Of a DNA stretch of 64,000 nucleotides, positions 23,378 through 61,600 are shown piece by piece; position 1 is the stretch's first letter; every line of letters begins with the position of its first letter. Source of the DNA: a virus (Duplodnaviria; Caudoviricetes); the IMG/VR virus record IMGVR_UViG_3300025450_001231. One strand, 5' to 3'. A model generated the notes under the pieces. The model was not told the DNA's origin. It saw only the letters and a list, made by a program, of their open reading frames with translations, and ran no database searches. A program made the translations under genes and the position numbers.

Positions 23378-24109
23378 ATGAAAGACCACCTTTTAGACAT
23401 CGTACAACATACACACAGCCTCGGAGGCATTGATATTGCTAAAGTTACAGGCACAGAAGATAATACCATTTTAGAAGCACTTTCTGAAAATCGTAGCATC
23501 ATTCTGCAGGCCAAATTCAAAGGACCAGTAGCAGATTTTATTGGAGTATTTGGTATGCCTAATCTCAGCAAACTAAACACTATTTTGAATATTCCAGAAT
23601 ACAAAGAAGACGCAGTTATTACTGTTACTCGCCAAACCAAAGGCGAAGATAATGTACCAGTAGGCGTACACTTTGAAAACAAAGCTGGTGACTTTAAGAA
23701 TGATTATCGTTTTATGGCAGAAGCTATTGTAAGTGAGCAATTGAAAAGTGTTAAAATGAAATCTGTTAAATGGATTGTAGACTTTGTGCCTTCTAATAAC
23801 AGTTTGCAAAGATTGAAATTCCAAGCCAGTGCTAATAGTGAAGAGCCTAATTTTTCTGTAAAAACAGAAGGCACGGATCTTAAATTTTACTTTGGCGATC
23901 ACAGTAGCCACGCAGGAGACTTTGTGTTCCAAAGCGGTATCAGTGGCAAGTTGACTAAAACTTGGAGCTGGCCAGTTGCAGCAGTTACTAGCATTTTGAG
24001 CTTGCCCGGTGACAAAACATTTAAGATCAGTGACGAAGGTGTTGCAATGATTACTGTAGACAGTGGCATTGCTGACTACAACTATATGTTACCTGCACAA
24101 ACAAAATGA
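23378..24109 (+). CDS. Probable sliding clamp (gp45/PCNA-like)
   Basis: 243 aa alternating beta/alpha pattern directly after polB, with a clamp loader in the window; inferred from size and context. Confidence 0.5.
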   Translation: MKDHLLDIVQHTHSLGGIDIAKVTGTEDNTILEALSENRSIILQAKFKGPVADFIGVFGMPNLSKLNTILNIPEYKEDAVITVTRQTKGEDNVPVGVHFENKAGDFKNDYRFMAEAIVSEQLKSVKMKSVKWIVDFVPSNNSLQRLKFQASANSEEPNFSVKTEGTDLKFYFGDHSSHAGDFVFQSGISGKLTKTWSWPVAAVTSILSLPGDKTFKISDEGVAMITVDSGIADYNYMLPAQTK

Positions 24110-25671
24110 TCCGAGACGACTTAACCAGTAAGCAAAGCGACTATGCGGTATTTTTACCAGCACTCAGTAGCTTTTATGGCACTTACATAGGCAAACAAAG
24201 GCACGATCCCAACTACATAGATCCTGCTCGTATACCTGCACAATTTGAAAATGGAATTGAGGGCCTTAACTGGTTAAACAGTAAAGAAGGATACTTTCAT
24301 TACAAATGGGCATTGTATAGTGCAGGGCACGCCAATTTGGATGTTAATAAATTCGATCCCAAAGAAGATATGGTTCGCAATCGTGATCCCAATACCTTTG
24401 TATTGGGCGATAGTGGCGGATTCCAAATTGGTAAAGGGGTATGGGAAGGCGATTGGAAAGATCCCAATTGTCCCAAAGCTATGAAGAAACGTAGCCAAGT
24501 ATTAAGCTGGATGGATGCTTATATGGATCGCGGTATGACCCTGGATATTCCAGCGTGGGTAGCCCGTAGTCCTGCAGGCCAAAAGGCCACTGGCATTTAC
24601 TCATATCAAGATGCAGTTGATGCTACCTACATCAACAACGAATACTTTATGAACAATCGTACAGGTCGTTGCAAGTTCTTGAATGTGCTACAAGGCGAGG
24701 ATCACACTCAAGCAGATGATTGGTATGAACGTGTTAAAAAGTTCTGCGATCCCAAACAATACAACCGTCCGTTTGAAGGATGGGCTATGGGTGGACAGAA
24801 TATGTGTGACATACATCTTACACTTAGAAGATTGGTTGCACTGCGCTTTGATGGCCTGTTAGAAAAAGGTCTACACGATTGGATGCACTTCTTGGGCACC
24901 AGTAAACTCGAGTGGGCCACGTTGTTAACTGATATTCAACGTGCTGTTCGCAAATATCATAACAGCCAATTTACCATCAGCTTTGACTGTGCAAGTCCAT
25001 TCTTGGCAACTGCCAACGGACAGATCTACTATGATATCACTACTCCGGATCGTGGCAAGTGGAGCTATCAAATGCAACCCAGCGTTGATAATAAAAAGTA
25101 TGCTACAGACACAAGGCAGTTTGGTGATGCACTATTGCAAGACCGAATATTTGATACTTTTGTAGAAAGCCCAGTTAGTCTTAGAACACTAATCAAAGAT
25201 GTTTGTATATACAAACCCGGTGATCTAAATAAGATTGGTAAAGAAGGTAAAACTTCTTGGGATAGTTTCAGCTATGCCATTCAAATGGGTCATAATGTTT
25301 GGACACATATCGAAGCAGTTCAACGTGCCAATAGAGCATACGACAGTGGTAGTTATCCAAATATGTTGGTAGCCAGTAAAATGAATGGCAAAAAATTCCA
25401 ACAGTATGATCGCCATTTTTTCAGAGACATTGTTGACGCTATATTTGAAACCAGTGATCGTGGTCGTGCAGAAGAACTAATCGAACACTATAACAAATAT
25501 TGGAAAGCCATTCCTGGAACTCGTGGTTATACCGGTGAAAATACGCAAAATAGCAACACTATGTTCAATCAATTGTTTAGTACTGTTGACGATAATTCAG
25601 ATGATGTGTATAATACAAGAGATAACAGCGGATTAGATGAAACGAAACTTATAGAATTGGAGACTTTATAA
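24106..25671 (+). CDS. dpdA: TGT-fold guanine transglycosylase, DpdA-like (DNA 7-deazaguanine insertase)
   Basis: TGT motifs in order: VLGDSGGFQ, MTLDIP, NVLQG, GWAMGG, HFLG, ISFDCASP, MGHNV. The tRNA-TGT CxCxxC zinc site is absent; folE/queD/queE lie nearby. Confidence 0.8.
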   Translation: MIRDDLTSKQSDYAVFLPALSSFYGTYIGKQRHDPNYIDPARIPAQFENGIEGLNWLNSKEGYFHYKWALYSAGHANLDVNKFDPKEDMVRNRDPNTFVLGDSGGFQIGKGVWEGDWKDPNCPKAMKKRSQVLSWMDAYMDRGMTLDIPAWVARSPAGQKATGIYSYQDAVDATYINNEYFMNNRTGRCKFLNVLQGEDHTQADDWYERVKKFCDPKQYNRPFEGWAMGGQNMCDIHLTLRRLVALRFDGLLEKGLHDWMHFLGTSKLEWATLLTDIQRAVRKYHNSQFTISFDCASPFLATANGQIYYDITTPDRGKWSYQMQPSVDNKKYATDTRQFGDALLQDRIFDTFVESPVSLRTLIKDVCIYKPGDLNKIGKEGKTSWDSFSYAIQMGHNVWTHIEAVQRANRAYDSGSYPNMLVASKMNGKKFQQYDRHFFRDIVDAIFETSDRGRAEELIEHYNKYWKAIPGTRGYTGENTQNSNTMFNQLFSTVDDNSDDVYNTRDNSGLDETKLIELETL

Positions 25672-25880
25672 TGGTAGAAAATGCAACTAACATTTTGGCG
25701 ATGACCATACTTAGCGGATGTGCAGTAGTTTTGGCAATTATGTTTATTATCTTAATTAACAATTTGTTACATAAGTATTGGAAACCATTGGGTTGGTTCA
25801 GTGCGTGGGGTGTTGCACCAAGATTTGTGACTACCGAAGACGCCAAGCAAGACCCTGCAATGGATCCCAATCATAAATGA
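25671..25880 (+). CDS. Small single-TM protein
   Basis: 69 aa with a long hydrophobic helix. Confidence 0.55.
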   Translation: MVENATNILAMTILSGCAVVLAIMFIILINNLLHKYWKPLGWFSAWGVAPRFVTTEDAKQDPAMDPNHK

Positions 25881-26749
25881 AAGCACTTGTTGTTGGCTTA
25901 GGTATAGGACAGTTGTACAAAACTGTTTTAACCAATCTCGGTTATGAAGTAATAACTGTAGACTCCAATATTGCAAAAGGTGCAGACTTACCTACAGTAG
26001 ATTCTGCAGTAATAGCACACGCACCTTTTGATATTACATTTGTTTGCACACCAAATCATACACATTTTGAATTGGCCGCAAAGGTTGCACCCTACAGTAA
26101 AATTGTATTCATCGAAAAACCCGGAGTATCAAATAGTTTCAGTTGGACTAATTTGGTAACTGTGTTTAAGAAAACACGTTTTATGATGGTCAAGAACAAT
26201 ATGTGGCGCAGTAATATTGCCGAGTTACAATCGTTGGCCAGCCAATCTGATACAGTAAAGATACAATGGCTTAGGCATAATTGTATCCCTAATCCTGGCA
26301 GTTGGTTTACTACAAAACGATTAGCATTTGGTGGTGTTAGTCGAGACTTGATGCCACATTTGTTAAGCATATACATTGCTCTAAATCCCAATTGGCGTAA
26401 AGTGTCTGCAACCAACAGAAATGCAGTTACAAATTGGAAACTAGCAGATATCGAAAGTACAGAGTACGGCACAGTTAACTACAGTGGAACTTATGATGTA
26501 GACGACCGTTGTACTATTAACTTTGGCGATAAATGGGCTTTGGTTGCAGATTGGCGTACGCTCGAAGAGGACAACAGCTCAATCGATTTTATTGCTAATA
26601 CAAACACCAATGTGGAATTAGGTTGGTGTCCTGAAGATGCGTATACTGCAATGATTAAAGATGCAGTCGCTAATATTAATAATCATCAATTCTGGTTAGA
26701 TCAGTTTGAAATTGATACTTGGATTCACGAACAAATAGAAAATCTATGA
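25877..26749 (+). CDS. Gfo/Idh/MocA-family NAD(P) oxidoreductase
   Basis: LVVGLGIG Rossmann motif, VCTPNHTH, VFIEKP, GGVSRDLMPH. Confidence 0.85.
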   Translation: MKALVVGLGIGQLYKTVLTNLGYEVITVDSNIAKGADLPTVDSAVIAHAPFDITFVCTPNHTHFELAAKVAPYSKIVFIEKPGVSNSFSWTNLVTVFKKTRFMMVKNNMWRSNIAELQSLASQSDTVKIQWLRHNCIPNPGSWFTTKRLAFGGVSRDLMPHLLSIYIALNPNWRKVSATNRNAVTNWKLADIESTEYGTVNYSGTYDVDDRCTINFGDKWALVADWRTLEEDNSSIDFIANTNTNVELGWCPEDAYTAMIKDAVANINNHQFWLDQFEIDTWIHEQIENL

Positions 26750-27696
26750 CCAACAGAATTTTATATACCAACGGACAAGGTGAATTTGCAGAAACCGTAT
26801 ACGATAAACCTCCAGTGGGCGAATACGAAATCGAAGTTCGATCAGTGTTAACCGGGGTATGTCGCAGTGATGTGGATATGATGACGGGCAGTTTTGGTCC
26901 GCTACCTTTGAATATGAGTGGACACGAAGGCCTTGGTCAAGTCACTGCAGTGGGCAAAGGTATCTACGACATTAAAATTGGCGATTATGTTGCCACACGC
27001 GGTGAGCCGGCTTATGCTGATTCTTATAATGTTCGAATTAACGAATTTGTGCGTGTGCCATCAGCAGAACCTAAATACATATTAGAACCTGTGGCCTGTG
27101 GTATTAATATTATACAACAACCTATTAGGGAAATAGCAGAACGCAGTGGCCCGGGTAAACGATTGGTAATATTAGGTAGCGGATTCCTTGCGTGGGTTGC
27201 GTATAACACTATTAAATTATTGCATTTAGACTTTGATATAACTGTAGTCGGTCATAGCAATAAAGATCTTTGGGGTAGTGCACTCAAAGATGACGCCAAA
27301 GTTGGTCATAGCAATAAAGAGCAGTGGAGTAGTGTACTTAAAGATACTGCCGAAGGCACTTACGATGTGGTAATTGATCTAAGTGGTAATACCAATGTAT
27401 TCGAAAGTGATATGGTAAATGCCGAAGCATTGATTGTGTTTGGTGCACAAAAAATGCTTACAACTGATTTCTCCAATGTGTTGTGGAAAGCCTGTACTGT
27501 TATATTCCCAAGTCCAAGGACCAAAAGGTTTATTCAGTGTATGGAAGATGCAGCATATTGGATAGAAATGGGCGATTTAGTCGTTGACAGTTTCTGGACT
27601 AAAGGCTATAATAGAGACACTGAGTGGCAAAATGCATTCAGAGATTCATTAACCCGCCCTGAGAATTATTCAAGGGGCTACATTTATTGGAAGTAA
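26746..27696 (+). CDS. MDR (zinc alcohol/polyol dehydrogenase-like) oxidoreductase
   Basis: GVCRSD, GHEGLGQV, IKIGDYV, EPVAC, LVILGSGFL; start ATG 26746 (ATGA overlap). Confidence 0.8.
   Translation: MTNRILYTNGQGEFAETVYDKPPVGEYEIEVRSVLTGVCRSDVDMMTGSFGPLPLNMSGHEGLGQVTAVGKGIYDIKIGDYVATRGEPAYADSYNVRINEFVRVPSAEPKYILEPVACGINIIQQPIREIAERSGPGKRLVILGSGFLAWVAYNTIKLLHLDFDITVVGHSNKDLWGSALKDDAKVGHSNKEQWSSVLKDTAEGTYDVVIDLSGNTNVFESDMVNAEALIVFGAQKMLTTDFSNVLWKACTVIFPSPRTKRFIQCMEDAAYWIEMGDLVVDSFWTKGYNRDTEWQNAFRDSLTRPENYSRGYIYWK
27247..27354 (+). repeat. 54-bp in-frame tandem duplication within the MDR gene
   Basis: 27247-27300 vs 27301-27354, 43/54 identical (VGHSNKDLWGSALKDDAK / VGHSNKEQWSSVLKDTAE). Confidence 0.85.
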
Positions 27697-27697
27697 T

Positions 27698-28297
27698 ATG
27701 GCACTTGATACAGATAGCCGTAAGATGATTACCTACTTTGTAGGTACAGAAGTAGAAAACACCCCAATGAAGAATGAAACTACATTATTTGTAGTAGGCA
27801 TTCAACCAGTAGAAGACATCATTGCAATTGTCAATGAGTCATTAAAAGATCCTAATCCAAAAAATCATATCAAAAATATTTACTTTGGTACAAGCCAAAG
27901 TTTCCATCCCGAGAACGCATACGAATGGGCTGCGTGGGATGATATGATCAAACCTTTGTTGATCAAAGACTACTGGGTGACTTTAGACTTTGGTGTTGAA
28001 TATGCTCGAGAACTACACGAGAACGGTTGGTGCGAATACAACACATTCATCCCTATGATCAGTGTTAAGATTCCCTATATCAAGCTCTATAACTATAATG
28101 CTACACTAAAGATCGACGACAACACTTGGGGAGATACAAACCCCGGTGTTTGGTGCCATCCCTTAAACGAACTGCTAACCAGAAACGTCTACACAGACTG
28201 GCGTGAGTATGTTGGTGATACACCAGTGGGTGTGCCTGCCAAAGTTGAATTCGAAGATATTATACAACCACCTAAAATTAAGGCAAAAAAGAAATGA
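27698..28297 (+). CDS. Hypothetical protein within the deazaguanine cluster
   Basis: 199 aa, closely packed between the MDR gene and the QueD-like gene. Confidence 0.7.
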   Translation: MALDTDSRKMITYFVGTEVENTPMKNETTLFVVGIQPVEDIIAIVNESLKDPNPKNHIKNIYFGTSQSFHPENAYEWAAWDDMIKPLLIKDYWVTLDFGVEYARELHENGWCEYNTFIPMISVKIPYIKLYNYNATLKIDDNTWGDTNPGVWCHPLNELLTRNVYTDWREYVGDTPVGVPAKVEFEDIIQPPKIKAKKK

Positions 28298-28740
28298 TTA
28301 ATCAAGATCAACGTGCACAAATAGATAGAATTATGGCGGCTGCAGATCGTATGATCTCAGTTACATTCCAAAAGGAAGGCATTCACTGCTATCCAGCAGC
28401 TGCCACAGATCCAATGTTGGCTACAGGAGATATGTATGATGTTAGTTTTCTTGGCACTCCGCATCGTCACATTTTCCACTTCAGAGTCTATATTAGTGTT
28501 ACTCATAATGACCGCGATATTGAATTTATACAGTTCAAACGCTGGTTAGAACACTTATACTCTAATGGTACATTGGAATTAGATTATAAAAGTTGCGAAA
28601 TGATCAGTGATGATCTTTACTTACAGATCGCTGCTAAGTATCCTAACCGTACAGTTTGGATCGAAGTTAGCGAAGACGGCGAAAATGGTGCGGTAATCAA
28701 ATACAATACCACAAGACCCGATTTATCAGTTGTTATTTAA
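28294..28740 (+). CDS. Second T-fold QueD paralogue (DpdL-like)
   Basis: LGTPHRHIFHFRV (LxxxHRHxF in place of the QueD C..HGH motif), RDIEF, KSCEM. Confidence 0.6.
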   Translation: MINQDQRAQIDRIMAAADRMISVTFQKEGIHCYPAAATDPMLATGDMYDVSFLGTPHRHIFHFRVYISVTHNDRDIEFIQFKRWLEHLYSNGTLELDYKSCEMISDDLYLQIAAKYPNRTVWIEVSEDGENGAVIKYNTTRPDLSVVI

Positions 28741-28966: not shown

Positions 28967-30037
28967 ATGACCATCTTCTTAGTTGATTTAGAAGCGGTAG
29001 AAACAAGGTATACGGGTCAATGGAAGACTCATATACCTGATTTACTTACAAAGGCAGGACACAATGTCACGATTATATCGGGCCCTAGAGATATTCCTAG
29101 CGCCACTACTCCTGGTGCATTTCTCAATTTTGGGGGCACTAATATCTATAAGGCAAGCCAAGTTGAACAACTTGGAAGACTTTTTTGTACAGGAGCCGTC
29201 CAGGCTGGCGATCATTTTATCTTTACTGATGCCTGGCATCCTGGTATCATAAACCTAAAGTATATGAGTGAGTTGTTGGGAATCCCAGTAACTACACACG
29301 GACTTTGGCACGCTGGCAGTTATGATCCTCAAGACTTTTTAGGACGATTAGTCGGAGATAAACCTTGGGTTAGATTTGCTGAAAAAAGTTTCTTTGAAGC
29401 GTTTGATCACAACTACTTTGCCACAGACTTTCACATCGATATGTTTTGTAAAAATCTATTACATATCGTAATGCCGCAAACAATTGAAGGTTTCAAAGAG
29501 ATTGGAAAAATTGTTCGCACAGGTTGGCCGATGGAGTATATGGACGATACATTGTCTGCATATAAAAATATGACCAAGCGAGATCTTGTACTGTTTCCAC
29601 ATCGTATTGCTCCCGAGAAGCAAGTGGAAATTTTTAGAGATTTGGCCACTCACTTGCCACAATACGAGTTTGTGGTATGTCAGGATCAACAGTTAACCAA
29701 AGATCAATATCATCGATTATTGGGCGAATCCAAATTGGTTTTTAGTTGTAGTTTACAAGAAACACTGGGAATTGGTTGCTACGAAGGTTCGCTAGTAGAT
29801 GCTATCCCTATGGTTCCAGATAGACTTAGCTATAGTGAAATGTATTACGATACATTCAAATACCCAAGCGAATGGACAGAAAGTTTCGAAGCATACGAAG
29901 CGCATTGTCCAGAACTTTGTGAGAAGATTATCCAATATATGGATAACTATCCCCACTTTTTGCCCAAATTAAAACAACAAACTGTTGCGCTAATTGAAAA
30001 CTTTTTCAGTTGCAATAATTTTCTAAATAAGTTATAA
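28967..30037 (+). CDS. GT-B (group 1-like) glycosyltransferase
   Basis: FTDAWHPG, HAGSYDPQDF, FPHRIAPEKQ, LQETLGIGCYEG (Ex7E), PMVPDRLSY. Confidence 0.8.
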   Translation: MTIFLVDLEAVETRYTGQWKTHIPDLLTKAGHNVTIISGPRDIPSATTPGAFLNFGGTNIYKASQVEQLGRLFCTGAVQAGDHFIFTDAWHPGIINLKYMSELLGIPVTTHGLWHAGSYDPQDFLGRLVGDKPWVRFAEKSFFEAFDHNYFATDFHIDMFCKNLLHIVMPQTIEGFKEIGKIVRTGWPMEYMDDTLSAYKNMTKRDLVLFPHRIAPEKQVEIFRDLATHLPQYEFVVCQDQQLTKDQYHRLLGESKLVFSCSLQETLGIGCYEGSLVDAIPMVPDRLSYSEMYYDTFKYPSEWTESFEAYEAHCPELCEKIIQYMDNYPHFLPKLKQQTVALIENFFSCNNFLNKL

Positions 30038-30057: not shown

Positions 30058-30798
30058 ATGAAATTAAAACCAGTATCATACGACAACATAGACGAAGGCG
30101 GCTATGAAGAATCTAGTTTAGCAGATGTTCTTCGTTTTAAGATGAAACGAGAAGGCAAACGCTTTTGGGCTAACGATAACATTAGTGAATATCTAAGCGA
30201 AGATGATAAAGAACGCCTAATAGAAGAAGCAACTGAAGCATTTGAGCAAGTACTGAAAACTTTACTGATCGACACAGATACCGATCCTAGTAGTAAAGGT
30301 ACTGCTCGACGACTGGCAAAAATGTACATTAATGAGGTGATGAGTGGAAGATATGATCCAGCCCCGGACGCAACAGCGTTCCCAAATGATTCGCAAGACC
30401 GTTACGAAGGTATGCTTGTTGTTCGCAGTGAACTGCGTAGTATGTGCAGTCATCATCACCAACCTGTGGCTGGTGTGGCTTATATTGGTATTATTGCTGC
30501 CAATAAACTTATTGGCTTATCTAAGTATTCCAGAATTGCACAGTGGTGTGCAAGACGAGGCACTCTCCAGGAGGAGCTTTGTAATGAAATTGCTAAAGAA
30601 ATAGGTCGAGCCACTGGTGCAAATGATATTGGTGTTTATGTTCAAATGACACACGGATGTTGCGAGAATCGAGGCATTATGGCACACAGTAGTTTAACAC
30701 AAACATCTGTGCTTAAAGGTGCATTCAAAGATGACTCTGGTACTAAGAAAGAGTTTTTTGATAATATTAAACTACAACAGGACTTTGCCCCAAGATGA
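30058..30798 (+). CDS. folE: GTP cyclohydrolase I
   Basis: TARRLAKMY, SMCSHHHQP, IGLSKYSRI, RRGTLQEEL, HGCCENRG. Confidence 0.93.
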   Translation: MKLKPVSYDNIDEGGYEESSLADVLRFKMKREGKRFWANDNISEYLSEDDKERLIEEATEAFEQVLKTLLIDTDTDPSSKGTARRLAKMYINEVMSGRYDPAPDATAFPNDSQDRYEGMLVVRSELRSMCSHHHQPVAGVAYIGIIAANKLIGLSKYSRIAQWCARRGTLQEELCNEIAKEIGRATGANDIGVYVQMTHGCCENRGIMAHSSLTQTSVLKGAFKDDSGTKKEFFDNIKLQQDFAPR

Positions 30799-32366: not shown

Positions 32367-32819
32367 ATGGTCTTGCTAAAGTTACTCGAAAGATTAGGAC
32401 GTAAAAGAATAATTATGGACCGAATTGACGATGAACCTTACTTAGAAAGATATTATGTATTCCTTAAAGAACGCACTTGGTTTCCCTTTAATGTATTTGT
32501 GCACAGGTTTCTTAAATCAGATCCTGATGATGTACACGATCATCCTTGGCCTTATGCTACCCTTATCCTTAAAGGCGGCTACTACGAATGGTTGCCACAG
32601 TTTAATAATCTTGGACAAAAAATAGGCGAAATAGCAGTATGGCGTGGTCCTGGTAGTTTTAGAATTTGTGGTGCCAAAAGCTATCATCGTATCGAAATTG
32701 ACGCCAATGTAGAAACTTGGACATTGTTTATGCCTGGCCCAAAACAACGCGAATGGGGATTCTTAACTCGCAAAGGGTGGATACAACACGAACAATATCT
32801 CTCAGCCAGAGCAAAATAA
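32367..32819 (+). CDS. Cupin-fold protein
   Basis: VHRFLKSDPDDVHDHPW...LKGGYYE...YHRIE...TWTLF metal-binding cupin pattern. Confidence 0.7.
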   Translation: MVLLKLLERLGRKRIIMDRIDDEPYLERYYVFLKERTWFPFNVFVHRFLKSDPDDVHDHPWPYATLILKGGYYEWLPQFNNLGQKIGEIAVWRGPGSFRICGAKSYHRIEIDANVETWTLFMPGPKQREWGFLTRKGWIQHEQYLSARAK

Positions 32820-32850
32820 TATAACCACTATAGCCTGCATAAAAACAAGA

Positions 32851-32930
32851 TAAATACACAAGCGGCCTTTGAGCATCATCCCGCTATACAAATTCTGCTG
32901 CCTATGCTACAATTAACATAGGAGAAAAGC
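32851..32930 (+). promoter_or_regulatory. Late promoter plus structured 5' leader of queD (preQ1-I-like pseudoknot and SD-sequestering stem)
   Basis: TAAATA 32851-32856; P1 AGCGG/CCGCT; A-rich tail; loop AGCA complementary to TGCT 32896-32899; CCTATG/CATAGG stem overlaps the SD. Confidence 0.55.
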
Positions 32931-33428
32931 ATGACACCCGTAACTTACAAATATACCTCAACAAAAGAATATGTGGACGCATTTCCTTGCGCTTACAGAC
33001 AATGGCGTGCAGACAGTCATTGCAATACTATTCACGGATACAGTTTTAGTATGAAATTTTATTTTGGTACTGACCAACTAGATGTTCGCAATTGGGTTGC
33101 CGATTACGGCGGCTTAAAAGAACTAAAGAAAATATTAGAGAGTCAATTTGATCATACGCTGCTAGTAGCAGAAGATGAACCAGAAATGGAAACATACAAG
33201 TTACTAGAATCAAAGGGGTTAGCAAAACTAACTATTTTACCAAAACTTGGTTGCGAGGGACTGGCTGATATGCTTTACAAGTATGTCAACAGTGTTTACA
33301 TTCCTGATATGTGGGGCCCAGGTGAAGCAGAAAGACTTTGGTGCTATAGAGTTGAAGTAAGAGAAACACAAGCTAATATGGCATTCAGAGAAGGTCATAG
33401 AGAATGGAATGAGGATTTATTTGTATGA
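32931..33428 (+). CDS. queD: 6-carboxy-5,6,7,8-tetrahydropterin synthase
   Basis: SHCNTIHGYS, DYGGLKELK, FDHTLL, VRET. Confidence 0.85.
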   Translation: MTPVTYKYTSTKEYVDAFPCAYRQWRADSHCNTIHGYSFSMKFYFGTDQLDVRNWVADYGGLKELKKILESQFDHTLLVAEDEPEMETYKLLESKGLAKLTILPKLGCEGLADMLYKYVNSVYIPDMWGPGEAERLWCYRVEVRETQANMAFREGHREWNEDLFV

Positions 33429-33766
33429 TCAAATACCATATTAATAACGTGGGCGGAGAAGTTATCAAAGATAACGAAACTTATACACTCAAAGATAATA
33501 AAACATTAAAAAACCTTGTGTTGAGCTCTACTAATTTACATAGAGGTATGAGTACACGTGGGCATCGTCACCCCGGGCAAGAAGAAATTTATATTTTTGT
33601 TTTGGGACACGGCCAAATGATTGTGGGAGATGAAACAGATGAGCCCTTTAGAGTCAGTGCAGGAGATATTGTACTAATCCCTGACGGGGCATTTCATCGT
33701 GTGATCAACGACGGCGACATCAATTTACTATTCAACTGTGTATTTGATGGTAAAAGAAATCATTAA
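33425..33766 (+). CDS. Cupin domain protein
   Basis: GHRHPGQEEIYIFVLGHG...AGDIVLIPDGAFHRV. Confidence 0.85.
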   Translation: MIKYHINNVGGEVIKDNETYTLKDNKTLKNLVLSSTNLHRGMSTRGHRHPGQEEIYIFVLGHGQMIVGDETDEPFRVSAGDIVLIPDGAFHRVINDGDINLLFNCVFDGKRNH

Positions 33767-33926
33767 ACAAGTTTGGCGCCTTTGGGCAAAATCGTTAGGT
33801 GAAAAAGCAGGTGATACGGACAAAGAAGCTGACCGTATTGCTTGCATTCGTACTGCAATTGTGTTATCATATATCATTACAAACTGCTTTATCGTAGCAG
33901 GTGTTATTCGACATTGGAATCAATAA
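33747..33926 (+). CDS. Small membrane protein
   Basis: C-terminal TM helix; likely start ATG 33747. Confidence 0.55.
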   Translation: MVKEIIKQVWRLWAKSLGEKAGDTDKEADRIACIRTAIVLSYIITNCFIVAGVIRHWNQ

Positions 33927-33927
33927 A

Positions 33928-34287
33928 ATGCTAACTTCAAAATTAAACAATCATATAGAAAAACGTGTTGTTCGAGAATTAGAAAAAAATTTACCAGTAG
34001 CAGTAAACTATTCTTCTACAGACAAAGTAGCCGAAGCATTAATTATACTAGCCGAAGAATGTGCAGAAGTTGTACAGGAAGTCTGCAAGATACAACGATT
34101 TGGTATTGAGTCAACTTCTCATCATACAGGGTTATCGCATAAAGCAACTTTAGCAAAAGAAGTAGCAGATGTATTGGCAATGGTTGATATCCTAGTAGAA
34201 CAAGGTGTAATTACATATAACGAATTAAATCTAGGTAAATTATCAAAAATCGAAAAATTAAAAAAATGGTCAAAGTTATATGAGTAA
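33928..34287 (+). CDS. MazG-like NTP pyrophosphohydrolase
   Basis: LAEECAEV...KEVADV (EExxE / ExxD metal motif). Confidence 0.75.
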   Translation: MLTSKLNNHIEKRVVRELEKNLPVAVNYSSTDKVAEALIILAEECAEVVQEVCKIQRFGIESTSHHTGLSHKATLAKEVADVLAMVDILVEQGVITYNELNLGKLSKIEKLKKWSKLYE

Positions 34288-35128
34288 AATTAAAATTTCA
34301 GAATTATTTTATAGTGTGCAGGGAGAAGGTCGCTATATGGGTGTACCATCTATATTTTTGCGTACATTCGGTTGTAACTTCAAATGCGCTGGCTTTGGAA
34401 TGCCAAGAGGAGAACTAAGTAATGAAACAGATGATATTGCAAGTGTTGTGCAAATGTACAACGATTATAAAGAATTGCCTTTGGTTTCTACAGGCTGTGA
34501 TTCTTATGCTAGTTGGGATCCTCGCTTTAAGCATCTCTCTCCTTTACTTTCTACTGATTCAATTGCCAATTCGATTATGGATATACTTCCTTACAAAGAA
34601 TGGCAAGACGAACATCTTGTAATCACTGGCGGCGAGCCATTGCTAGGTTGGCAACGTCAATATCCTGATTTGCTGGATCATCCTAAAATGCATGGACTCA
34701 AAGAGATTACATTTGAAACCAATGGCACTCAAAAGTTAACCCCAGAATTCAAACATTACTTGGATGACTGGACTATTGCCAACTGGGATAGAGAAATCAC
34801 ATTCAGTGTAAGTGCCAAACTTCCTGCCAGTGGAGAATCGTGGGAGGATGCTATTAAGCCCGAAGTTGTATGTGAATATGAACAAGTTGGTACTGCTTAC
34901 CTTAAATTAGTGGTTGCAACTGAACAAGATATCGCTGACGCAGAATGTGCAGTAGGAGCATTTCGTTCAGCAGGATTTAAGGGACACATTTATCTAATGC
35001 CTGTTGGTGGTGTGGAAAGTGTTTATACATTAAACGCAAAGAATGTAGCACTGGCCGCTATGAAGCGTGGATGGCGTTACAGTGATAGATTGCAAGTGCC
35101 ATTGTTTAAGAACGAGTGGGGCACCTGA
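34280..35128 (+). CDS. queE: 7-carboxy-7-deazaguanine synthase (radical SAM)
   Basis: ISELFYSVQGEG, FLRTFGCNFKC...GCDS, VITGGEPLL, ITFETNG, SVSAKL, RLQV. Confidence 0.88.
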   Translation: MSKIKISELFYSVQGEGRYMGVPSIFLRTFGCNFKCAGFGMPRGELSNETDDIASVVQMYNDYKELPLVSTGCDSYASWDPRFKHLSPLLSTDSIANSIMDILPYKEWQDEHLVITGGEPLLGWQRQYPDLLDHPKMHGLKEITFETNGTQKLTPEFKHYLDDWTIANWDREITFSVSAKLPASGESWEDAIKPEVVCEYEQVGTAYLKLVVATEQDIADAECAVGAFRSAGFKGHIYLMPVGGVESVYTLNAKNVALAAMKRGWRYSDRLQVPLFKNEWGT

Positions 35129-55685: not shown

Positions 55686-58600
55686 TTAATTATCTTTGAT
55701 GAATTCGGCTTGTATTTGTGTGCTTTCAAACAATCCTGTGCCATCCGTTGGAGTTATTCCGTAATTGGTATTCAACCAAAGTTTACTTTGCTGATAAGTA
55801 TGACCTTCTGCTAAAGTATAAGTTTTGCCTGCAGTAGTCGTAACAGTATTGTTGGCCACTGGAGTATAAGAAGTGTGAGCACTTTGCGGGACTACTTGGA
55901 ATACACTGCCGTCAATCATTCTCGAACCAGCTAAATGTACATTTGCGCCAGTGCCTGCAGTTGCTCTTCGAATATTACTGAGCGTATTTGTGGAATTATC
56001 CACAGTCCAGTAGGTTATTCTTTCACCGTTAATGAACACTACGCCAGGTCTAAGTCCTTGCGATCCCACTGATGGAATTGGCAGTCTAGTAACATCGTCT
56101 ACTTGAATAACTGTGTCCAGTAATCCTAAATCTGCAGTTAAATTGGCTGTGCTATTGGTTTTTGGTATTCTCAAATACTGATATTCATCATTCATTGATT
56201 TGAATATTCTGTAATCAAAAGTAACAAAACTTGCAGCAGTCATTACAACTGTAGCGTTTGCTGGGCTAGTATTAGCTCCTAATATTACAACAGTCGGTGC
56301 TGTATGATAGATAACTGTTGGATCGTCTGGCGTAATACTGATAATACTACCGTTTCCGTCAAACGTTGCAGTTGCATTGTTTGTTATAACTGTAGTAGTT
56401 GAAATCTCATCACTGGAAAGATCAGTTTCGTCGGATGTTATTGTGTTACCACCAAATGGGAATAGTATTCTAGTATCATCTGCAGTAAGGTTAGCGGTAT
56501 AGGTATTTTCTAACAATACTCTTACATTTCCGTATCCCAATCCAGGATCGTTAATGATAATAGAAGTAATAACAAAGCTAGTGGCAATACCGTCACCGTT
56601 ACTGGCAATGGTACTAATTCTCATATCCAACGTATCATATACCCTGCCTGGTATTAGTTCTTCCGGAGCGTGACTGCTATATGTATCAACATATCCACCG
56701 CCGTCAACAATAACATCGTCAGGTCTATAGCCTAATGAAGAATCAGTATATTTTGACTCTATTACTGAATCTAACAACGAATCGCTGATGCTAACTGTAC
56801 CGTCAGGATTTAATATCAGTCCATCAAATGATGAAATATCAAATCCGCCTTGTCCAAAACCGCCGTTATCTGTATACAAAGGTCCTTCTACTATAACACC
56901 AGGATAATCTATCCCGGATTGTAGTAAACTGTAATCCAAACCTGGCATACCTAAAGTAGGCTGATAAAATGCACGTATTCTATCATTTGCAGGTGCAGTA
57001 ATTTTTTCTATTATATAATTCTGGTCTGTGGTCAATGACGCACTGTCTGCAAAGAAACCTACATCAGTTGTTAAATCAAACTCAGACAGTGTTGTATCCA
57101 ATGGTAATGCAACTGTGTTATAATTGTCTGCAGTAATAGTCAGGGCTCTTACGCCAGGTGTAACCAGTTGTGTGGCATCTGCTGTAATTGTTTTATTACC
57201 TGCTTTAACATTGATGTTATCAGCAGTTAATCTTGTTCCTGTTAGCGGTGCCGCACCATAATTGATTCTATCATAGACTAGTGTAGCTTTGAGCTTACGT
57301 GTAGTATTGTTGACCAAATGAGCCAACAAACGTGCTTCTGTTACAGCAGGGCCAGATCCTGAAGTACCAAACCCACCACCACCAAATATACTGGTGTTTA
57401 TACCAATTATTGGTTGTGTAGTATAATGCGACCCAGGATAAGTTACTACTATAGAAACAATAGAACCATTATGCATAATAGGTATAGCTGTGGCATCATC
57501 GCCTATTGCACTTCCAGTGATAGTAATGATAGGTGGCGTAGGATAATCTTTTCCACCATCGATAACTTCAATTGATCCAACTGAATATGTATAAGAAGTG
57601 ATCCAGTCTTGATATGTTAAATTATTTTGTAATTGATTTATATCTTGTCCAAACTCACCGCTTGGACTACGATATTTTTGAAACACCGTATCATAGTAAG
57701 CTGGTAAATCATAATCAGTAACGTACCCCATAACATTATCAATTGCAGTATAATCCAATGTGTATTCACGTATGGTGGTATGATAAGGTTTAACTTCCTC
57801 TATGTACTGCTGATAGTAGTCTTGATTTTCATTACGATAAATTGGAGTCTGATTCAGATTTCTAATAGTATGCAATACATTTACAAAACTAGTTTTGAAT
57901 ACCCAATCAACAGACTTTTGTTCTTTTAATGCATAATAAATTAAGCTGAAGAACATACTAACAAAATCACTATCCATTGTATTGATAAAGATATCGTCTC
58001 GTAAGGCTGTAAATATATTTCTAATTTCAATTGATGGGTTTTGATCGAAGCCACGAGTATCAAAATTATCGTTATCAAACCCCATTCCGTTGCCTTCTAA
58101 ATCGTAAAGATTAGAAGTTAACTGTATGGTTCCATTTTGTAAACCGATTGGTAAAACAACATTAGGAAATACCTGTATGAGACTCCATTGCCCTTGACCG
58201 TTGTTTAGAATTTTAACAATATCACCAGTAACCAATGATAGTGTACTTAAATCTGCAGGTTGGCCGATTGTATATGTAGGCTTTGTACTACGGTCAAATC
58301 CTGTAGCATACCAATCTACAAATTCCCAGTAATCAGCAGTATTATAAGTTTGAGTTCTTGTTAATTGCCAAGTGTTGTTTCTTCGTTTAGTATAAATGGT
58401 CCAATGATTGTTTGCTGAACTATCGTTTTCAACTAAAACTGTGTAACCGGCTGGATATATAGCAATGTCTACATATCCCAATGTTTCTAAGTTAGGTACA
58501 GATGTATTGTAAAGACCAAGTCCCACATTAGGTATAGGTTCCCCTGCACTTAAATTAGCAAGATTAAAACCTTTACTAATTGTATTCTTTATTAGTATAC

Positions 58601-61600
58601 TATTGATATAATCAACCATCTCGTGGACAGCTTGATTTTTATCAATGAACATACTTTGACGAGGACGAATTCCAATTCCGTAACGTGTTTGTACCGGCAA
58701 CAAAGGATCTGGAACTTGATTACCAAATGCATCTATTCCGCTAACACTATCAACTAGTTTGTTATAGATCGCAGTGGGGATATCATCTGCACGACTATTT
58801 GTTTCACTTAATAATACAAATTCACTGTGAATAATATTATCAGCATCAGTACGAGTAGAATAATCTATGTGGAGTATGGTATCTTTACCTGTTGCCGTAC
58901 CTGCTAAATTATAAATTGCAATACTATCATTTCTGATTGCAGCAAAATACTCGACCCCACTATTTTTAGGATCTTTTATATAACTTGCAATTGCTGATAC
59001 CGGAGCAGTTCTGTTCTTTAATTTTACGTCAACTGTAGACTTATCTTTGACCCAATAGTAGTATTTTACAATAGTCTGATTTGTTTCAGGATCTACATAA
59101 TTTACTGTACTGTATGCACTATTGTCTGGATATTTTGGTGTCCCGTCTCCACCAGTGGCTACATATTGGCTTGGTGGATACATACTTTCTACCCACTCGT
59201 ATACATCAATACTGCTGCCAGGGAATGTTCCTCCCCAGTTTGTAGTGCGATATTGTATACTGCCTTGTTCGTAGTTCAAGAATCGTACTGTGCTAAGATC
59301 CCACCAAACTTTTCCAACTTCGTTGCTGTCCCAGTGGAACGCAGAGTCTAAAGTAACTGTACCGTTTGTTCCGTGATTGTAAACACCGGGATCGTGTGCC
59401 ACTTTATAACTGATATCTTGTTCAGCTATTCCCAATATTTTACCTTTTGCAGGATCAATATAATCTAGGGTATGTGTAATTGTTTGTGATTTATCACTGT
59501 AGACAAATGCTTTTACAATAGAATTAATATCAACTTCAGGTTCTTCGGCGGTATAAACGTCCCACCCCAATAGTCCTGCAGGATTACTAAATTGATAAAT
59601 TCTTCCAGCTGCGGTACCATATGTATTATCAAAATTAGATCCAATAATCATTTCAGTGGAATTAAAATCTATCGCACTACCAAAATTAACATAAGGTTGC
59701 AATGATGGGTTAATTCCGGAACTGTAGGGATTAATCTGTTGAACAAATGCAAATACTCCAGGATCAGCAATATCATTTTTACTGTTTGCCAAATAGCTAA
59801 ACATCCAAACCCCGCCGGAAATCACTTCATCAACAAACACCATTGATCCAGAATCAAAAGTAGTGGCTATATGGTCCGTATCAAATATAGTAACTTCGCT
59901 TGTTATAGCAGCAGTACTAGATACTGCCAATACATTATTTGATGGATTAATTTTTACATTTTGTCCAAACAAGTCGTATGCATTGTTAGTCGGATTATTG
60001 ATAATTTCAACTTGAACAAATACATCTAGTCCCAAATCCTGGATACTATTTCCCATTCCAGGTAAGATTCTTATTTTGTTTGAATCTGCAGTTGCAGTTG
60101 TTGTCAATTGCAAATAACCGTTGACATTAGCCGCTGACAATCCAGGGATAAAGTGATTATTAATTGCAGTTACTGTGCTATCTAAATCGCTGTAGATGAA
60201 TATAATTTCAAAGTCGTTGATTCTAATACTATTACCAGGAGTAACGGTTGGGTTTTGTACTTTACCAGTAATGGTTCCGTATACTCTTGCTTGGTTTACA
60301 TATCTATAGACTTGACCAGCATAGTATCTATTTGTATTTGCGTGTGGTGCTCCTGCATATACAGTACTGTCAGTTGCATCAATGTCAACACTGAATCCCA
60401 ACTGTGCTTTTGTTCCGGCTGGATTGCTAAATCGTTTTAGTAATTTGAATTGATTTGTTTCTATTGTAACAATACTATTTTGTGGGGGAGCAACTGTAAA
60501 TTCAAATTCACTGTGATGTGTAGGATAACCGCTAACACTATAAATGGTATAATCAGTACCGTAAGTTTGCAAAATATCATTTACATAAACTCTATCTGTG
60601 TAAACTAACTCACGGGGGCTACTGAATTTAGTTTCTATTCCGTTACCTAAGAATTGTTCCACAGTTCTGTCGTATATACTAACACTACCTGCTTCGCCAT
60701 TATCAGTGGGTGCACCTACTGCAATTTGTCTGCCATCGGTAGTTGTTGCAATACTGTAGCCAAAATTATTGTCACCGTTGTTATAAAATATTTTATCTTT
60801 CAACTGGTAACCAGGTTGTTGACGAACAATCAGTGTACCGGCAGGCACAGGATTGACAAAAGTTAATGTAGTACCCGATACTGTAAAACCAGTGCCGTAT
60901 ACTAATGTATATGATTCTAAAGAAGTAATTACTGTTGCAGTTAAAAATTCAGGTCCTGCAATTGTAAAATCAGTAATCATATACTGTGTGTCTGATCCTG
61001 TTGTAGCAGAGAATGTCTGACTACTTGATGTTAAATTAGAGAACCATTGGTACGCATAAACTGCTTTTTCTCCAGGTGCGCCTACATACATCCAATGTGC
61101 ATCTTCACTGATTGCAACACTAGTACCAAATTCTGATGAATTTGTAGTCGTTGGTCCTAAAATTTGTTGTTGAGTAATAACGCCCAAGAAGTTTTTAGTA
61201 TAAACATACACATAGCCTGACCCGTCGGAACTGCCAGGAGCTCCAGTTACAATATGATTGGAACCTAATGCAAGACTTGTGCCCATACCGGCAGTATTTT
61301 GTGCAGATCCAATGATTGTAGAGTTTTCTGCTAATTTTCCAGTAGTAGTTGAATAAGCATACAAGTATTCAACTAGTGCACCTGTTCCATTGGCATATCC
61401 AGGAGCACCAACTATTGCTAATTTATTATCTGCACTAAGTTTTACACTTGTACCAAAATTGGCGCCAGCATATGGGCTTTCAGTTGCAAAGCTTAAAATT
61501 GGTTGCCAAGGATCTGTTTTGTTGTATACTGCCCAATTGTTATTTGCAGTATTGTCATTGATCCATACTTTACTGTTAGCAGTCCACCCGTTAACTGGAG

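What the first reader, a model, noticed from the sequence alone, without database searches (positions are those of the whole stretch)
32851..32930. preQ1-I-like pseudoknot leader on phage queD: candidate phage riboswitch with altered ligand
Seen: after a late promoter the leader reads AGCGG-CCUUUGAGCAUCAUC-CCGCU-AUACAAAUUC-UGCU. This gives a 5-bp P1, a C just before the 3' strand, an A-rich tail, and a loop AGCA that can pair with the tail UGCU (H-type pseudoknot). A CCUAUG/CAUAGG stem then covers part of the SD (AGGAG 32920-32924). An alternative GCGGC/GCUGC pairing is possible. Established: the B. subtilis queC preQ1-I aptamer has this layout (AGAGG-UUCUAGCUACAC-CCUCU-AUAAAAAA-CUAA). Differences are C rather than U at the first loop position and a 15-nt loop. 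Inference: feedback control of the deazaguanine pathway. Because no QueC is seen, the ligand could be CDG, DG or a pterin rather than preQ1.
Basis: partly seen in the sequence, partly recalled or inferred. Interest (0 to 1): 0.72.

Follow-up and report, generated by a model that had tools for sequence, protein, structure and literature searches.

The report
Phage queD-leader pseudoknot riboswitch candidate
The 70-base leader in front of this lake phage's queD gene folds into a small RNA pseudoknot that well over a hundred uncultured phages keep with compensating base changes; it matches no catalogued RNA family and looks like a new, phage-only relative of the class I preQ1 riboswitch that probably switches translation of a DNA-modification operon on.

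Summary
Window 32861-32901 is an H-type pseudoknot: a 5-bp P1, an invariant C just before the P1 3' strand, an A-rich L3, and a P2 helix.

Both helices covary in three alignments (84-95% standard pairs against 29-51% for slid controls; 0 of 500 shuffles reach the covariation score). A covariance model finds one copy per phage genome. Every true copy precedes queD or a queD-containing operon, across QueD proteins only 31-90% identical.

Rfam 15 gives no PreQ1 hit or any other credible hit. Among the genome contigs pattern hits examined (80 of 103), only three short, phage-like MAG contigs carry the motif. Five cultured relatives lack it.

The 3' strand of P2 doubles as the anti-SD strand (class A, as here) or the anti-start-codon strand (class B). 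Folding of the knot should therefore free the ribosome site.

The carriers encode FolE, QueD, QueE, DpdL and a TGT-fold DpdA-like protein but no QueC. This is the proposed 7-deazaguanine DNA-modification route.

The ligand is unknown and binding is untested. This scan has already reported the same motif on at least eight other genomes, with the same reading.

The parts
32850..32856 (+). ATAAATA box, a T4-late-promoter-like element 4 nt upstream of P1
   Evidence: Of the 15 copies in the window, 14 are co-oriented with the genes. TAAATA lies within 30 nt upstream of P1 in 38 of 65 homologues. Promoter function is inferred.
32861..32865 (+). P1 5' strand (AGCGG)
   Evidence: 99-100% paired. Positions 2 and 3 covary (GC/CG/UA; CG/UA/AU).
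32866..32872 (+). L1 (CCUUUGA). It begins Y-C-U in most homologues and is variable in length.
32873..32878 (+). P2 5' strand (GCA-U-CA). U32876 is an invariant mismatch partner.
   Evidence: Five of the seven P2 pairs show double changes. A32878:U32896 switches to G:C in three lineages.
32879..32880 (+). L2 (UC). C32880 is invariant and is the candidate specificity base.
   Evidence: C 61/61, U 54/61. The review PMC11625349 gives 'UC' here as the type I preQ1-I signature.
32881..32885 (+). P1 3' strand (CCGCU)
32886..32895 (+). L3, the A-rich tail (AUACAAAUUC). A32888, A32892, U32894 and C32895 are invariant.
32896..32901 (+). P2 3' strand (UG-C-UGC). C32898 is invariant and lies opposite U32876.
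32901..32922 (+). SD-sequestering hairpin: CCUAUG 32901-06, loop 32907-16, CAUAGG 32917-22. It shares C32901 with P2 here, and shares CC in most homologues.
   Evidence: 94 distinct class A sequences, 99-100% canonical at six positions, G:C to A:U change at position 6..
32920..32924 (+). Shine-Dalgarno sequence AGGAG
32885..32913 (+). Embedded sigma-70-like promoter match (TATACA-17-TACAAT, with TG before the -10). The -35 lies in L3 and the -10 in the hairpin loop.
   Evidence: Found in 45 of 65 homologues. Function unknown.
32931..33428 (+). queD (PTPS/QueD family, 165 aa), the regulated gene
33425..33766 (+). Cupin gene, second gene of the operon
   Evidence: In L249 the motif sits before cupin-queD.
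33901..34287 (+). MazG-like NTP pyrophosphohydrolase
34280..35128 (+). QueE-like radical SAM enzyme (CDG synthase)
30058..30798 (+). FolE (GTP cyclohydrolase I), pathway context
28294..28740 (+). DpdL-like QueD paralogue carrying LGTPHRHIF (the LxxxHRHxF motif), the proposed CDG decarboxylase
   Evidence: The motif definition comes from PMC10516641. Homologues are present in 10 of 10 motif-bearing records.
24106..25671 (+). TGT-fold, DpdA-like transglycosylase candidate (521 aa, with a DSGGFQ motif)
   Evidence: motif; model, pLDDT 85.9; Foldseek: top 50 hits all tRNA-guanine transglycosylase, E 1.6e-7.

Best explanation
The leader of the queD operon mRNA carries a small aptamer-like H-type pseudoknot at or near its 5' end.

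Anatomy:
- P1 is 5 bp.
- L2 is UC, with an invariant C next to P1.
- L3 is an A-rich loop of 10 nt.
- P2 has 6-9 positions and an invariant U.C mismatch.

The fold works like a class I preQ1 riboswitch aptamer but is a separate, phage-specific class.

Proposed mechanism (inferred):
- Without ligand, the 3' strand of P2 pairs downstream with the SD (here CC of 32901-02 with GG of 32921-22) and translation initiation is blocked.
- A guanine-faced heterocycle binds at the P1/P2 junction against C32880 and stabilises P2.
- This pulls the anti-SD strand away and turns on translation of queD-cupin-mazG-queE.
- Those genes feed a FolE-QueD-QueE-DpdL-DpdA route that puts 7-deazaguanine into phage DNA.

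Shown: the structure, its conservation, its gene linkage, and the overlap of P2 with the sequestering helix.
Inferred: that a small molecule binds, which one, and the direction of switching.
For: Structure:
- Covariation is seen in an unselected MAFFT alignment (A1: 84% paired, 0/500), a seed alignment (A2: 95%), the model-fitted unbiased set (A3: 61 distinct, 94%) and a second set (A5: 93 distinct, 94%, 200 double-change cells).
- Slid controls give 29-51% paired.
- G.U pairs occur only as read on the + strand, which points to RNA rather than DNA.
- Seven unpaired bases are invariant.

Linkage:
- 75 of 81 sources fetched by QueD similarity carry one copy just upstream of queD.
- 113 of 119 pattern hits in IMG/VR are followed by QueD homologues of 31-90% identity. 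Of the other six, four have a QueD-family gene as the first or second gene, one is cut off by the contig end and one is a chance match.
- Five large records, three of them 98-100% complete, each hold one copy.

Variable expression platforms on a constant aptamer:
- Class A has an SD hairpin (94 distinct sequences).
- Class B has a start-codon helix (39 distinct sequences, 97-100% canonical).
- Both use the P2 3' strand.
- Modelled SD accessibility rises from 0.32 to 0.74 when the aptamer is closed. It goes up in 53 of 61 sequences and down in none.

Context:
- FolE, QueD, QueE, DpdL and a TGT-fold protein are present.
Against: - No ligand binding or switching has been measured, and no RNA data exist for this phage.
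- The ON inference rests on nearest-neighbour modelling that cannot treat pseudoknots or coaxial stacking.
- In this window P2 and the SD hairpin overlap by only one base (C32901), because A32872 faces C32902. A stacked P2-hairpin arrangement (OFF or neutral) is therefore not excluded here.
- ON control of a biosynthetic operon by a pathway metabolite is unusual.
- The P2-fitted alignments (A3, A5) lean towards the model's structure.
- An embedded sigma-70-like promoter in 45 of 65 homologues could account for part of the sequence conservation in L3 and the hairpin loop.
- With T4-like promoter geometry, the transcript in this window would start inside P1.
Confidence: 0.6

Rival explanations
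1. It is an ordinary member of the preQ1-I family (RF00522) that binds preQ1 or preQ0 and represses queD, as in bacteria.
For: It shares the pseudoknot topology, the 5-bp P1 topped by G-C pairs, the C before the P1 3' strand with the type I 'UC', the A-rich L3 and the queD association (review).
Against: - No PreQ1 hit appears even at E <= 10 in the 211-nt region or in nine diverse carrier loci.
- P2 has 6-9 positions with an invariant U.C mismatch, rather than 3-4 bp.
- The SD is not part of P2.
- L1 starts YCU, not UU.
- The wiring reads ON.
- The carriers lack QueC and so cannot make preQ0 or preQ1 themselves.
Confidence: 0.07
2. The pseudoknot is an operator for a phage or host protein, such as an autoregulating pathway enzyme or a translational repressor or activator, and not a metabolite sensor.
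For: - Phage leaders with protein-bound pseudoknots exist; T4 gene 32 is an example from general knowledge.
- The related phage ACP17 encodes RegA.
- Invariant unpaired bases would also suit a protein site.
Against: - The RNA stays nearly constant while QueD diverges to 31% identity and the upstream genes differ.
- The small size, the junction C and the A-rich L3 match the known small-molecule pocket of preQ1-I.
- The modular expression platforms are typical of riboswitches.
Confidence: 0.15
3. It is a ligand-independent structural element, for example a 5'-terminal stabiliser, a folding device that constitutively holds the anti-SD strand away, or a thermometer.
For: It sits at the probable 5' end of the transcript. 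The pseudoknot alone would free the SD.
Against: A constitutive opener together with a conserved sequestering helix serves no purpose unless the balance is regulated. Seven invariant unpaired bases and an invariant internal mismatch go beyond what stability requires.
Confidence: 0.12
4. The conservation is mainly at the DNA level. A sigma-70-type promoter (-35 in 'L3', -10 in the hairpin loop) and flanking operator repeats drive queD.
For: TATACA-17-TACAAT lies at 32885-32913. Comparable matches occur in 45 of 65 homologues, and the hairpin loops nearly all read TAnnnT.
Against: - Class B and other carriers lack the promoter match but keep the pseudoknot.
- Compensatory changes and strand-specific G.U pairs in P1 and P2 are not explained by a promoter.
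Confidence: 0.04

Closest known systems
preQ1-I riboswitch (Rfam RF00522), especially type I (for example Carnobacterium antarcticum; review PMC11625349)
   Same: - H-type pseudoknot.
- 5-bp P1 capped by G-C pairs.
- 'UC' directly before the P1 3' strand, with the C as the likely Watson-Crick partner of a guanine-like ligand.
- A-rich L3, often interrupted by a C.
- Location in front of a 7-deazaguanine biosynthesis gene.
   Different: - Not matched by the Rfam model.
- P2 is about twice as long and has an invariant U.C mismatch.
- L3 ends in an invariant UC.
- L1 begins YCU, not UU.
- The SD lies 20-30 nt downstream and is controlled through a competing helix.
- The wiring reads ON, whereas all described preQ1 switches repress.
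- It was found only in phage-like contigs.
- The carriers lack QueC.
preQ1-II and preQ1-III riboswitches (RF01054, RF02680)
   Same: Pseudoknotted aptamers for a 7-deazaguanine, in front of queuosine-related genes.
   Different: Those are HLout-type pseudoknots with an embedded hairpin. No Rfam match was obtained here.
Phage-encoded riboswitches already described (for example the glutamine riboswitch in Melnitz-like and pelagiphage genomes, PMC9004378)
   Same: A metabolite-type RNA switch carried by T4-like aquatic phages.
   Different: Those are copies of bacterial classes. This motif turned up in no bacterial chromosome among the pattern hits examined.
7-deazaguanine DNA-modification clusters with DpdL (Cellulophaga phage phiST, Acidovorax phage ACP17; PMC10516641)
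   Same: Same gene set: FolE, QueD, QueE, DpdL (LxxxHRHxF) and a transglycosylase, with no QueC.
   Different: The cultured representatives tested (ACP17, PA5oct, Phosso, RHph_I1_18, X1) lack the RNA motif. In ACP17, queD overlaps the upstream gene.

Membership tests
preQ1-I riboswitch (RF00522) | Match to the Rfam covariance model | tested here: not met
   There is no hit at gathering score on the 64-kb window. There is no PreQ1 hit at E <= 10 on 32780-32990 or on nine diverse carrier loci.
preQ1-I riboswitch (RF00522) | H-type pseudoknot with a 5-bp P1 and a loop-to-3'-tail P2 | tested here: met
   P1 and P2 are supported by covariation.
preQ1-I riboswitch (RF00522) | Specificity cytosine immediately 5' of the P1 3' strand (UC in type I, AC in types II/III) | tested here: met
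   C32880 is invariant (61/61). The preceding base is U in 54 of 61 sequences. The feature is as defined in PMC11625349.
preQ1-I riboswitch (RF00522) | A-rich L3 able to line the P1 minor groove | tested here: met
   L3 consensus is WUAMAAAYUC, with A32888 and A32892 invariant and A32890/A32891 near-invariant. The tertiary contacts themselves cannot be tested here.
preQ1-I riboswitch (RF00522) | Conserved U or UU at the start of L1 | tested here: not met
   The first L1 base is C in 32, U in 22 and A in 6 sequences. The second is C in 52 of 61.
preQ1-I riboswitch (RF00522) | Short P2 (3-4 pairs) that holds SD bases or precedes a terminator, with OFF logic | tested here: not met
   P2 spans 6-9 positions with an invariant U.C mismatch. 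The SD lies 19-33 nt downstream. The P2 3' strand is the anti-SD or anti-AUG strand, which gives ON wiring.
preQ1-I riboswitch (RF00522) | Binds preQ1 (or preQ0) | not testable with these tools
   This needs in-line probing or ITC.
Riboswitch (general) | Conserved aptamer joined to variable expression platforms in the 5' leader of functionally related genes | tested here: met
   One aptamer is joined to at least two platform classes, always before queD or queD-containing operons.
Riboswitch (general) | Direct, selective binding of a small molecule that changes expression | not testable with these tools
DpdL-type 7-deazaguanine DNA modification cluster (PMC10516641) | FolE + QueD + QueE + DpdL (LxxxHRHxF) + DpdA, without QueC | tested here: met
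   FolE, QueD and QueE are present. DpdL carries LGTPHRHIF. A TGT-fold protein is present. QueC is absent from 10 carrier records, apart from weak partial N-terminal hits. QueC was not searched in the unseen rest of this phage's genome.

The most novel reading that the evidence does not exclude
A new riboswitch class confined to phages. It would be a preQ1-I-like pseudoknot that senses a guanine-faced metabolite other than preQ1: 7-deazaguanine or CDG, free guanine released by the DpdA base exchange, or the pterin substrate of QueD. It would activate, not repress, translation of the operon that makes the 7-deazaguanine base for phage DNA. That would be the first riboswitch dedicated to viral DNA hypermodification and the first ON switch with this fold.
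Probability: 0.5. Interest if true: 0.88.

Novelty: new variant of a known kind. Interest (0 to 1): 0.8.

Why it matters
Riboswitch classes that occur only in viruses are essentially unknown; the phage riboswitches described so far are copies of bacterial classes.

- This motif would show that phages evolved their own metabolite sensor for a DNA-hypermodification pathway.
- It would extend the smallest known aptamer fold to a new ligand and to ON logic.
- It would give a handle on the poorly understood DpdL/7-deazaguanine route: what limits it, and when it is switched on during infection.
- It is abundant in freshwater jumbo and T4-like phages. The aptamer is under 45 nt, so it is directly testable in vitro and usable as a compact sensor part.

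Tried and rejected
- Rfam at gathering and permissive thresholds gave only chance microRNA or lncRNA hits.
- The nested MFE fold of the leader is not better than shuffles (z = -0.23). It picks the non-conserved GCGGC/GCUGC pairing and is uninformative for a pseudoknot.
- TATAAATA is not enriched in the window (6 copies against 6.9 expected).
- DNA searches of cultured phages found no match for the locus or for the 76-nt leader, apart from 20-nt chance hits.
- The covariance model run on the complete genomes of ACP17, Phosso, RHph_I1_18, PA5oct and X1 gave nothing except a 14-bit hit away from queD.
- The pattern scan of 596 Gb of prokaryote genomes returned 103 stretches, close to my own rough estimate of about 70 chance matches for this pattern. 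Of the 80 examined, only L150, L160 and L100 are full-length motifs, all on 4-6 kb MAG contigs with queD downstream. The other full-length alignments lie inside unrelated sequence and score 17-27 bits.
- For the 521-aa ORF, Pfam, PHROGs, NCBIfam and PDB sequence searches were empty or spurious, and a single-sequence AlphaFold model failed (pLDDT 32). Only the MSA-based model and Foldseek identified the TGT fold.
- Literature searches for a phage queD or 7-deazaguanine riboswitch found no prior description. The Seurat genome note only cites a preQ1 review.
- DpdL presence does not separate motif-bearing phages from motif-less relatives.

Full report
**What is there.** The window is from an uncultured freshwater phage. 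The DNA is held in lake and freshwater metagenome runs, there is no DNA match to cultured phages, and the best QueD match is 53% to Acidovorax phage ACP17. The finding lies in the 111-nt gap between a cupin-like gene (32367-32819, phrog_4786) and queD (32931-33428; PF01242, phrog_2389). The quoted sequence is correct.

**Is it more than chance?** Not on thermodynamics. The nested MFE is no better than shuffles (z = -0.23), as expected for a pseudoknot.

The comparative evidence is strong. Fetching IMG/VR loci by QueD similarity gave 80 loci with 83-90% protein identity, and their leaders share the element. By eye:
- P1 changes AGCGG/CCGCU to ACCGG/CCGGU, AGUGG/CCACU, AGAGG/CCUCU or AUCGG/CCGAU.
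- The loop-tail helix changes GGCA/UGCC to GGCG/CGCC, GGCU/AGCC, GACUU/AAGUC, GACAU/AUGUC or GGUG/CACC.
- UCAUC/UCUGC changes to UCGUC/UCCGC in three lineages.

Formal counts for the pseudoknot (12 pairs):

| Alignment | Distinct sequences | Standard pairs |
|---|---|---|
| A1, unselected MAFFT | 59 | 84% |
| A2, seed | 26 | 95% |
| A3, model-fitted, RNA-unbiased | 61 | 94% |
| A5, second set, pattern-fetched | 93 | 94% (200 double-change cells) |

Slid controls give 29-51% paired, and no shuffle out of 500 reaches the observed covariation score. A3 and A5 were fitted to P2 by the model and lean that way. P1 was not in the model, and A1 was not fitted at all.

**Anatomy in window coordinates.**
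- P1: 32861-65 with 32881-85.
- L1: 32866-72.
- P2: G32873:C32901, C32874:G32900, A32875:U32899, the U32876.C32898 mismatch, C32877:G32897 and A32878:U32896.
- L2: U32879-C32880.
- L3: 32886-95.
- Invariant unpaired bases in 61 distinct sequences: U32876, C32880, A32888, A32892, U32894, C32895 and C32898.

In this window A32872 faces C32902, so P2 is one pair shorter than in most relatives.

**Distribution and linkage.**
- The model R1 finds exactly one copy in 75 of 81 sources, always just before queD.
- It finds one copy in each of five large viral records, three of them 98-100% complete.
In 113 of them a QueD homologue of 31-90% identity follows.
- Of the six exceptions, L249 (cupin then QueD), L260 and L295 (unknown gene then QueD) have QueD as the second gene. 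L276 is followed by a 306-aa PTPS-like protein. One exception is truncated and one is a chance match.
- The RNA is therefore far better conserved than the protein it precedes, and it travels with queD across different upstream genes.
- In 596 Gb of prokaryote genomes the same pattern gave 103 stretches, close to my own rough estimate of about 70 chance matches. Of the 80 examined, only three (L150, L160, L100) are full-length motifs, all on 4-6 kb MAG contigs with queD downstream.
- No cultured phage has it, either by BLAST or by the model on the whole genomes of ACP17, Phosso, RHph_I1_18, PA5oct and X1.

**Expression platform.**
- Class A (94 distinct sequences, including the window) has the hairpin CCUAUG/CAUAGG. 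Its 5' CC is the end of the P2 3' strand and its 3' AGG is the start of the SD. Six positions are 99-100% canonical, and position 6 shows a G:C to A:U change.
- Class B (39 distinct sequences) has no such hairpin. Instead (U)GUC[AG]UC, which starts with the last bases of the P2 3' strand, pairs with G-AUG-GC at the start codon. This is 97-100% canonical over six positions.
- A third small group (for example L067) pairs AUGUCU with the bases just after the SD.
- In a partition-function model, blocking the aptamer bases raises the mean unpaired probability of the SD from 0.32 to 0.74. It rises in 53 of 61 sequences and falls in none. In the window it goes from 0.38 to 0.74.
- Different platforms thus converge on the same logic: knot formation frees the initiation region. 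This is ON wiring.
- The inference is model-based. It ignores coaxial stacking, and it is weakest in this window, where P2 and the hairpin share only C32901.

**Pathway context.**
- The operon is queD, cupin, MazG-like and QueE-like.
- Upstream lie FolE (30058-30798) and a QueD paralogue with LGTPHRHIF (28294-28740). LxxxHRHxF is the signature of DpdL, the proposed CDG decarboxylase of phages that have DpdA, FolE, QueD and QueE but no QueC; phiST carries dDG and ACP17 carries DpdL (PMC10516641).
- A 521-aa protein (24106-25671) has a DSGGFQ motif. Its MSA-based model (pLDDT 85.9) matches only tRNA-guanine transglycosylases in its top 50 Foldseek hits (E 1.6e-7).
- DpdL homologues occur in 10 of 10 motif-bearing records.
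- QueC is absent from those ten, apart from weak partial N-terminal hits.
- The regulated pathway is therefore most likely GTP, H2NTP, CPH4, CDG, 7-deazaguanine and then DNA.

**Comparison with known families.**
- Shared with preQ1-I: the topology, the 5-bp P1, the junction C with the type I 'UC', and the A-rich L3 (review PMC11625349).
- Membership fails on several tests. There is no Rfam match. P2 is long with an invariant mismatch. L1 does not begin with U or UU. The SD is not in P2. The switching logic is opposite.
- The 2024 review mentions no phage example and no activating preQ1 switch.
- My literature searches found no description of this motif.
- Phage riboswitches reported so far are bacterial classes such as the glutamine riboswitch (PMC9004378).

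**Ligand (inference only).** An invariant C at the junction suggests a 2-amino-4-oxo, guanine-like face. Rough odds:
- 7-deazaguanine or CDG: about 35%.
- Guanine, which DpdA releases and which competes with the modified base: about 20%.
- A pterin such as QueD's substrate H2NTP, or CPH4: about 20%.
- preQ0 or preQ1: about 10%.
- No small-molecule ligand: about 15%.

ON logic fits a precursor or a demand signal better than an end product.

**Earlier notes of this scan.** At least eight follow-up reports on other genomes describe the same queD-leader pseudoknot as a new preQ1-I-like, probably ON, phage riboswitch. They are AI notes, not independent evidence. I re-derived the structure, the linkage, the Rfam negatives and the ON wiring here. 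A first-reader note on this window's gene cluster led me to test DpdL and the TGT fold, and both held.

**Verdict.** This is a real, strongly conserved cis-regulatory RNA pseudoknot and a very good candidate for a new phage-specific riboswitch class. I put about 0.9 on a functional structured RNA, about 0.6 on the full riboswitch-ON model, and leave the ligand open.

Noticed in passing
window 32885-32913: A sigma-70-like promoter (TATACA-17-TACAAT, with TG before the -10) is embedded in the element. The -35 lies in L3 and the -10 in the loop of the SD hairpin. Comparable matches occur in 45 of 65 homologues, and the hairpin loops nearly all read TAnnnT. A transcript from it would lack the aptamer. 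It could be a bypass promoter, a pause signal or a coincidence.
   Followed up: partly
window 804, 2960, 6798, 7770, 11678, 15122, 32850, 39453, 39478 (+); 20373, 49971, 53254, 54489, 55261, 55678 (-): ATAAATA boxes are fewer than chance overall (15 against 26). However, 14 of the 15 are co-oriented with the local genes, and those I checked against the ORF list lie shortly upstream of ORF starts. This looks like a T4-late-type promoter of this phage group. TAAGTA variants appear in relatives.
   Followed up: partly
window 24106-25671: A 521-aa protein with no Pfam, PHROG or NCBIfam match belongs to a family of at least 7990 metagenomic homologues. It is predicted with high confidence to have the tRNA-guanine transglycosylase fold (DSGGFQ motif). 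It is probably an uncatalogued DpdA subfamily. PA5oct-like Pseudomonas jumbo phages carry a 37%-identical homologue next to their DpdL.
   Followed up: yes
window 25877-28297 and 28967-30037: Between the DpdA-like gene and DpdL/FolE lie a Gfo/Idh/MocA-type oxidoreductase, a zinc alcohol-dehydrogenase-like protein, and unknown proteins of 199 aa and 356 aa. The base may be modified further, beyond 7-deazaguanine.
   Followed up: no
L027, L040, L043, L075, L077, L079 and about 39 distinct class B leaders: Class B leaders keep a conserved RUCAAACUU(G/A)CU(A/C) block between P2 and the SD. Its role is unclear. ACUUGC can also pair with the P2 3' strand, which suggests a third alternative helix.
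   Followed up: partly
L005, L006, L012, L052, L061: Close QueD relatives (85-90% identity) have no leader and no motif; queD follows the upstream gene directly. Three of these five records still encode DpdL. The switch is therefore dispensable within the same phage group.
   Followed up: partly
window 55686-63998 (-): A very long open frame of at least 2734-2770 aa runs off the end of the window on the minus strand. It was not examined.
   Followed up: no
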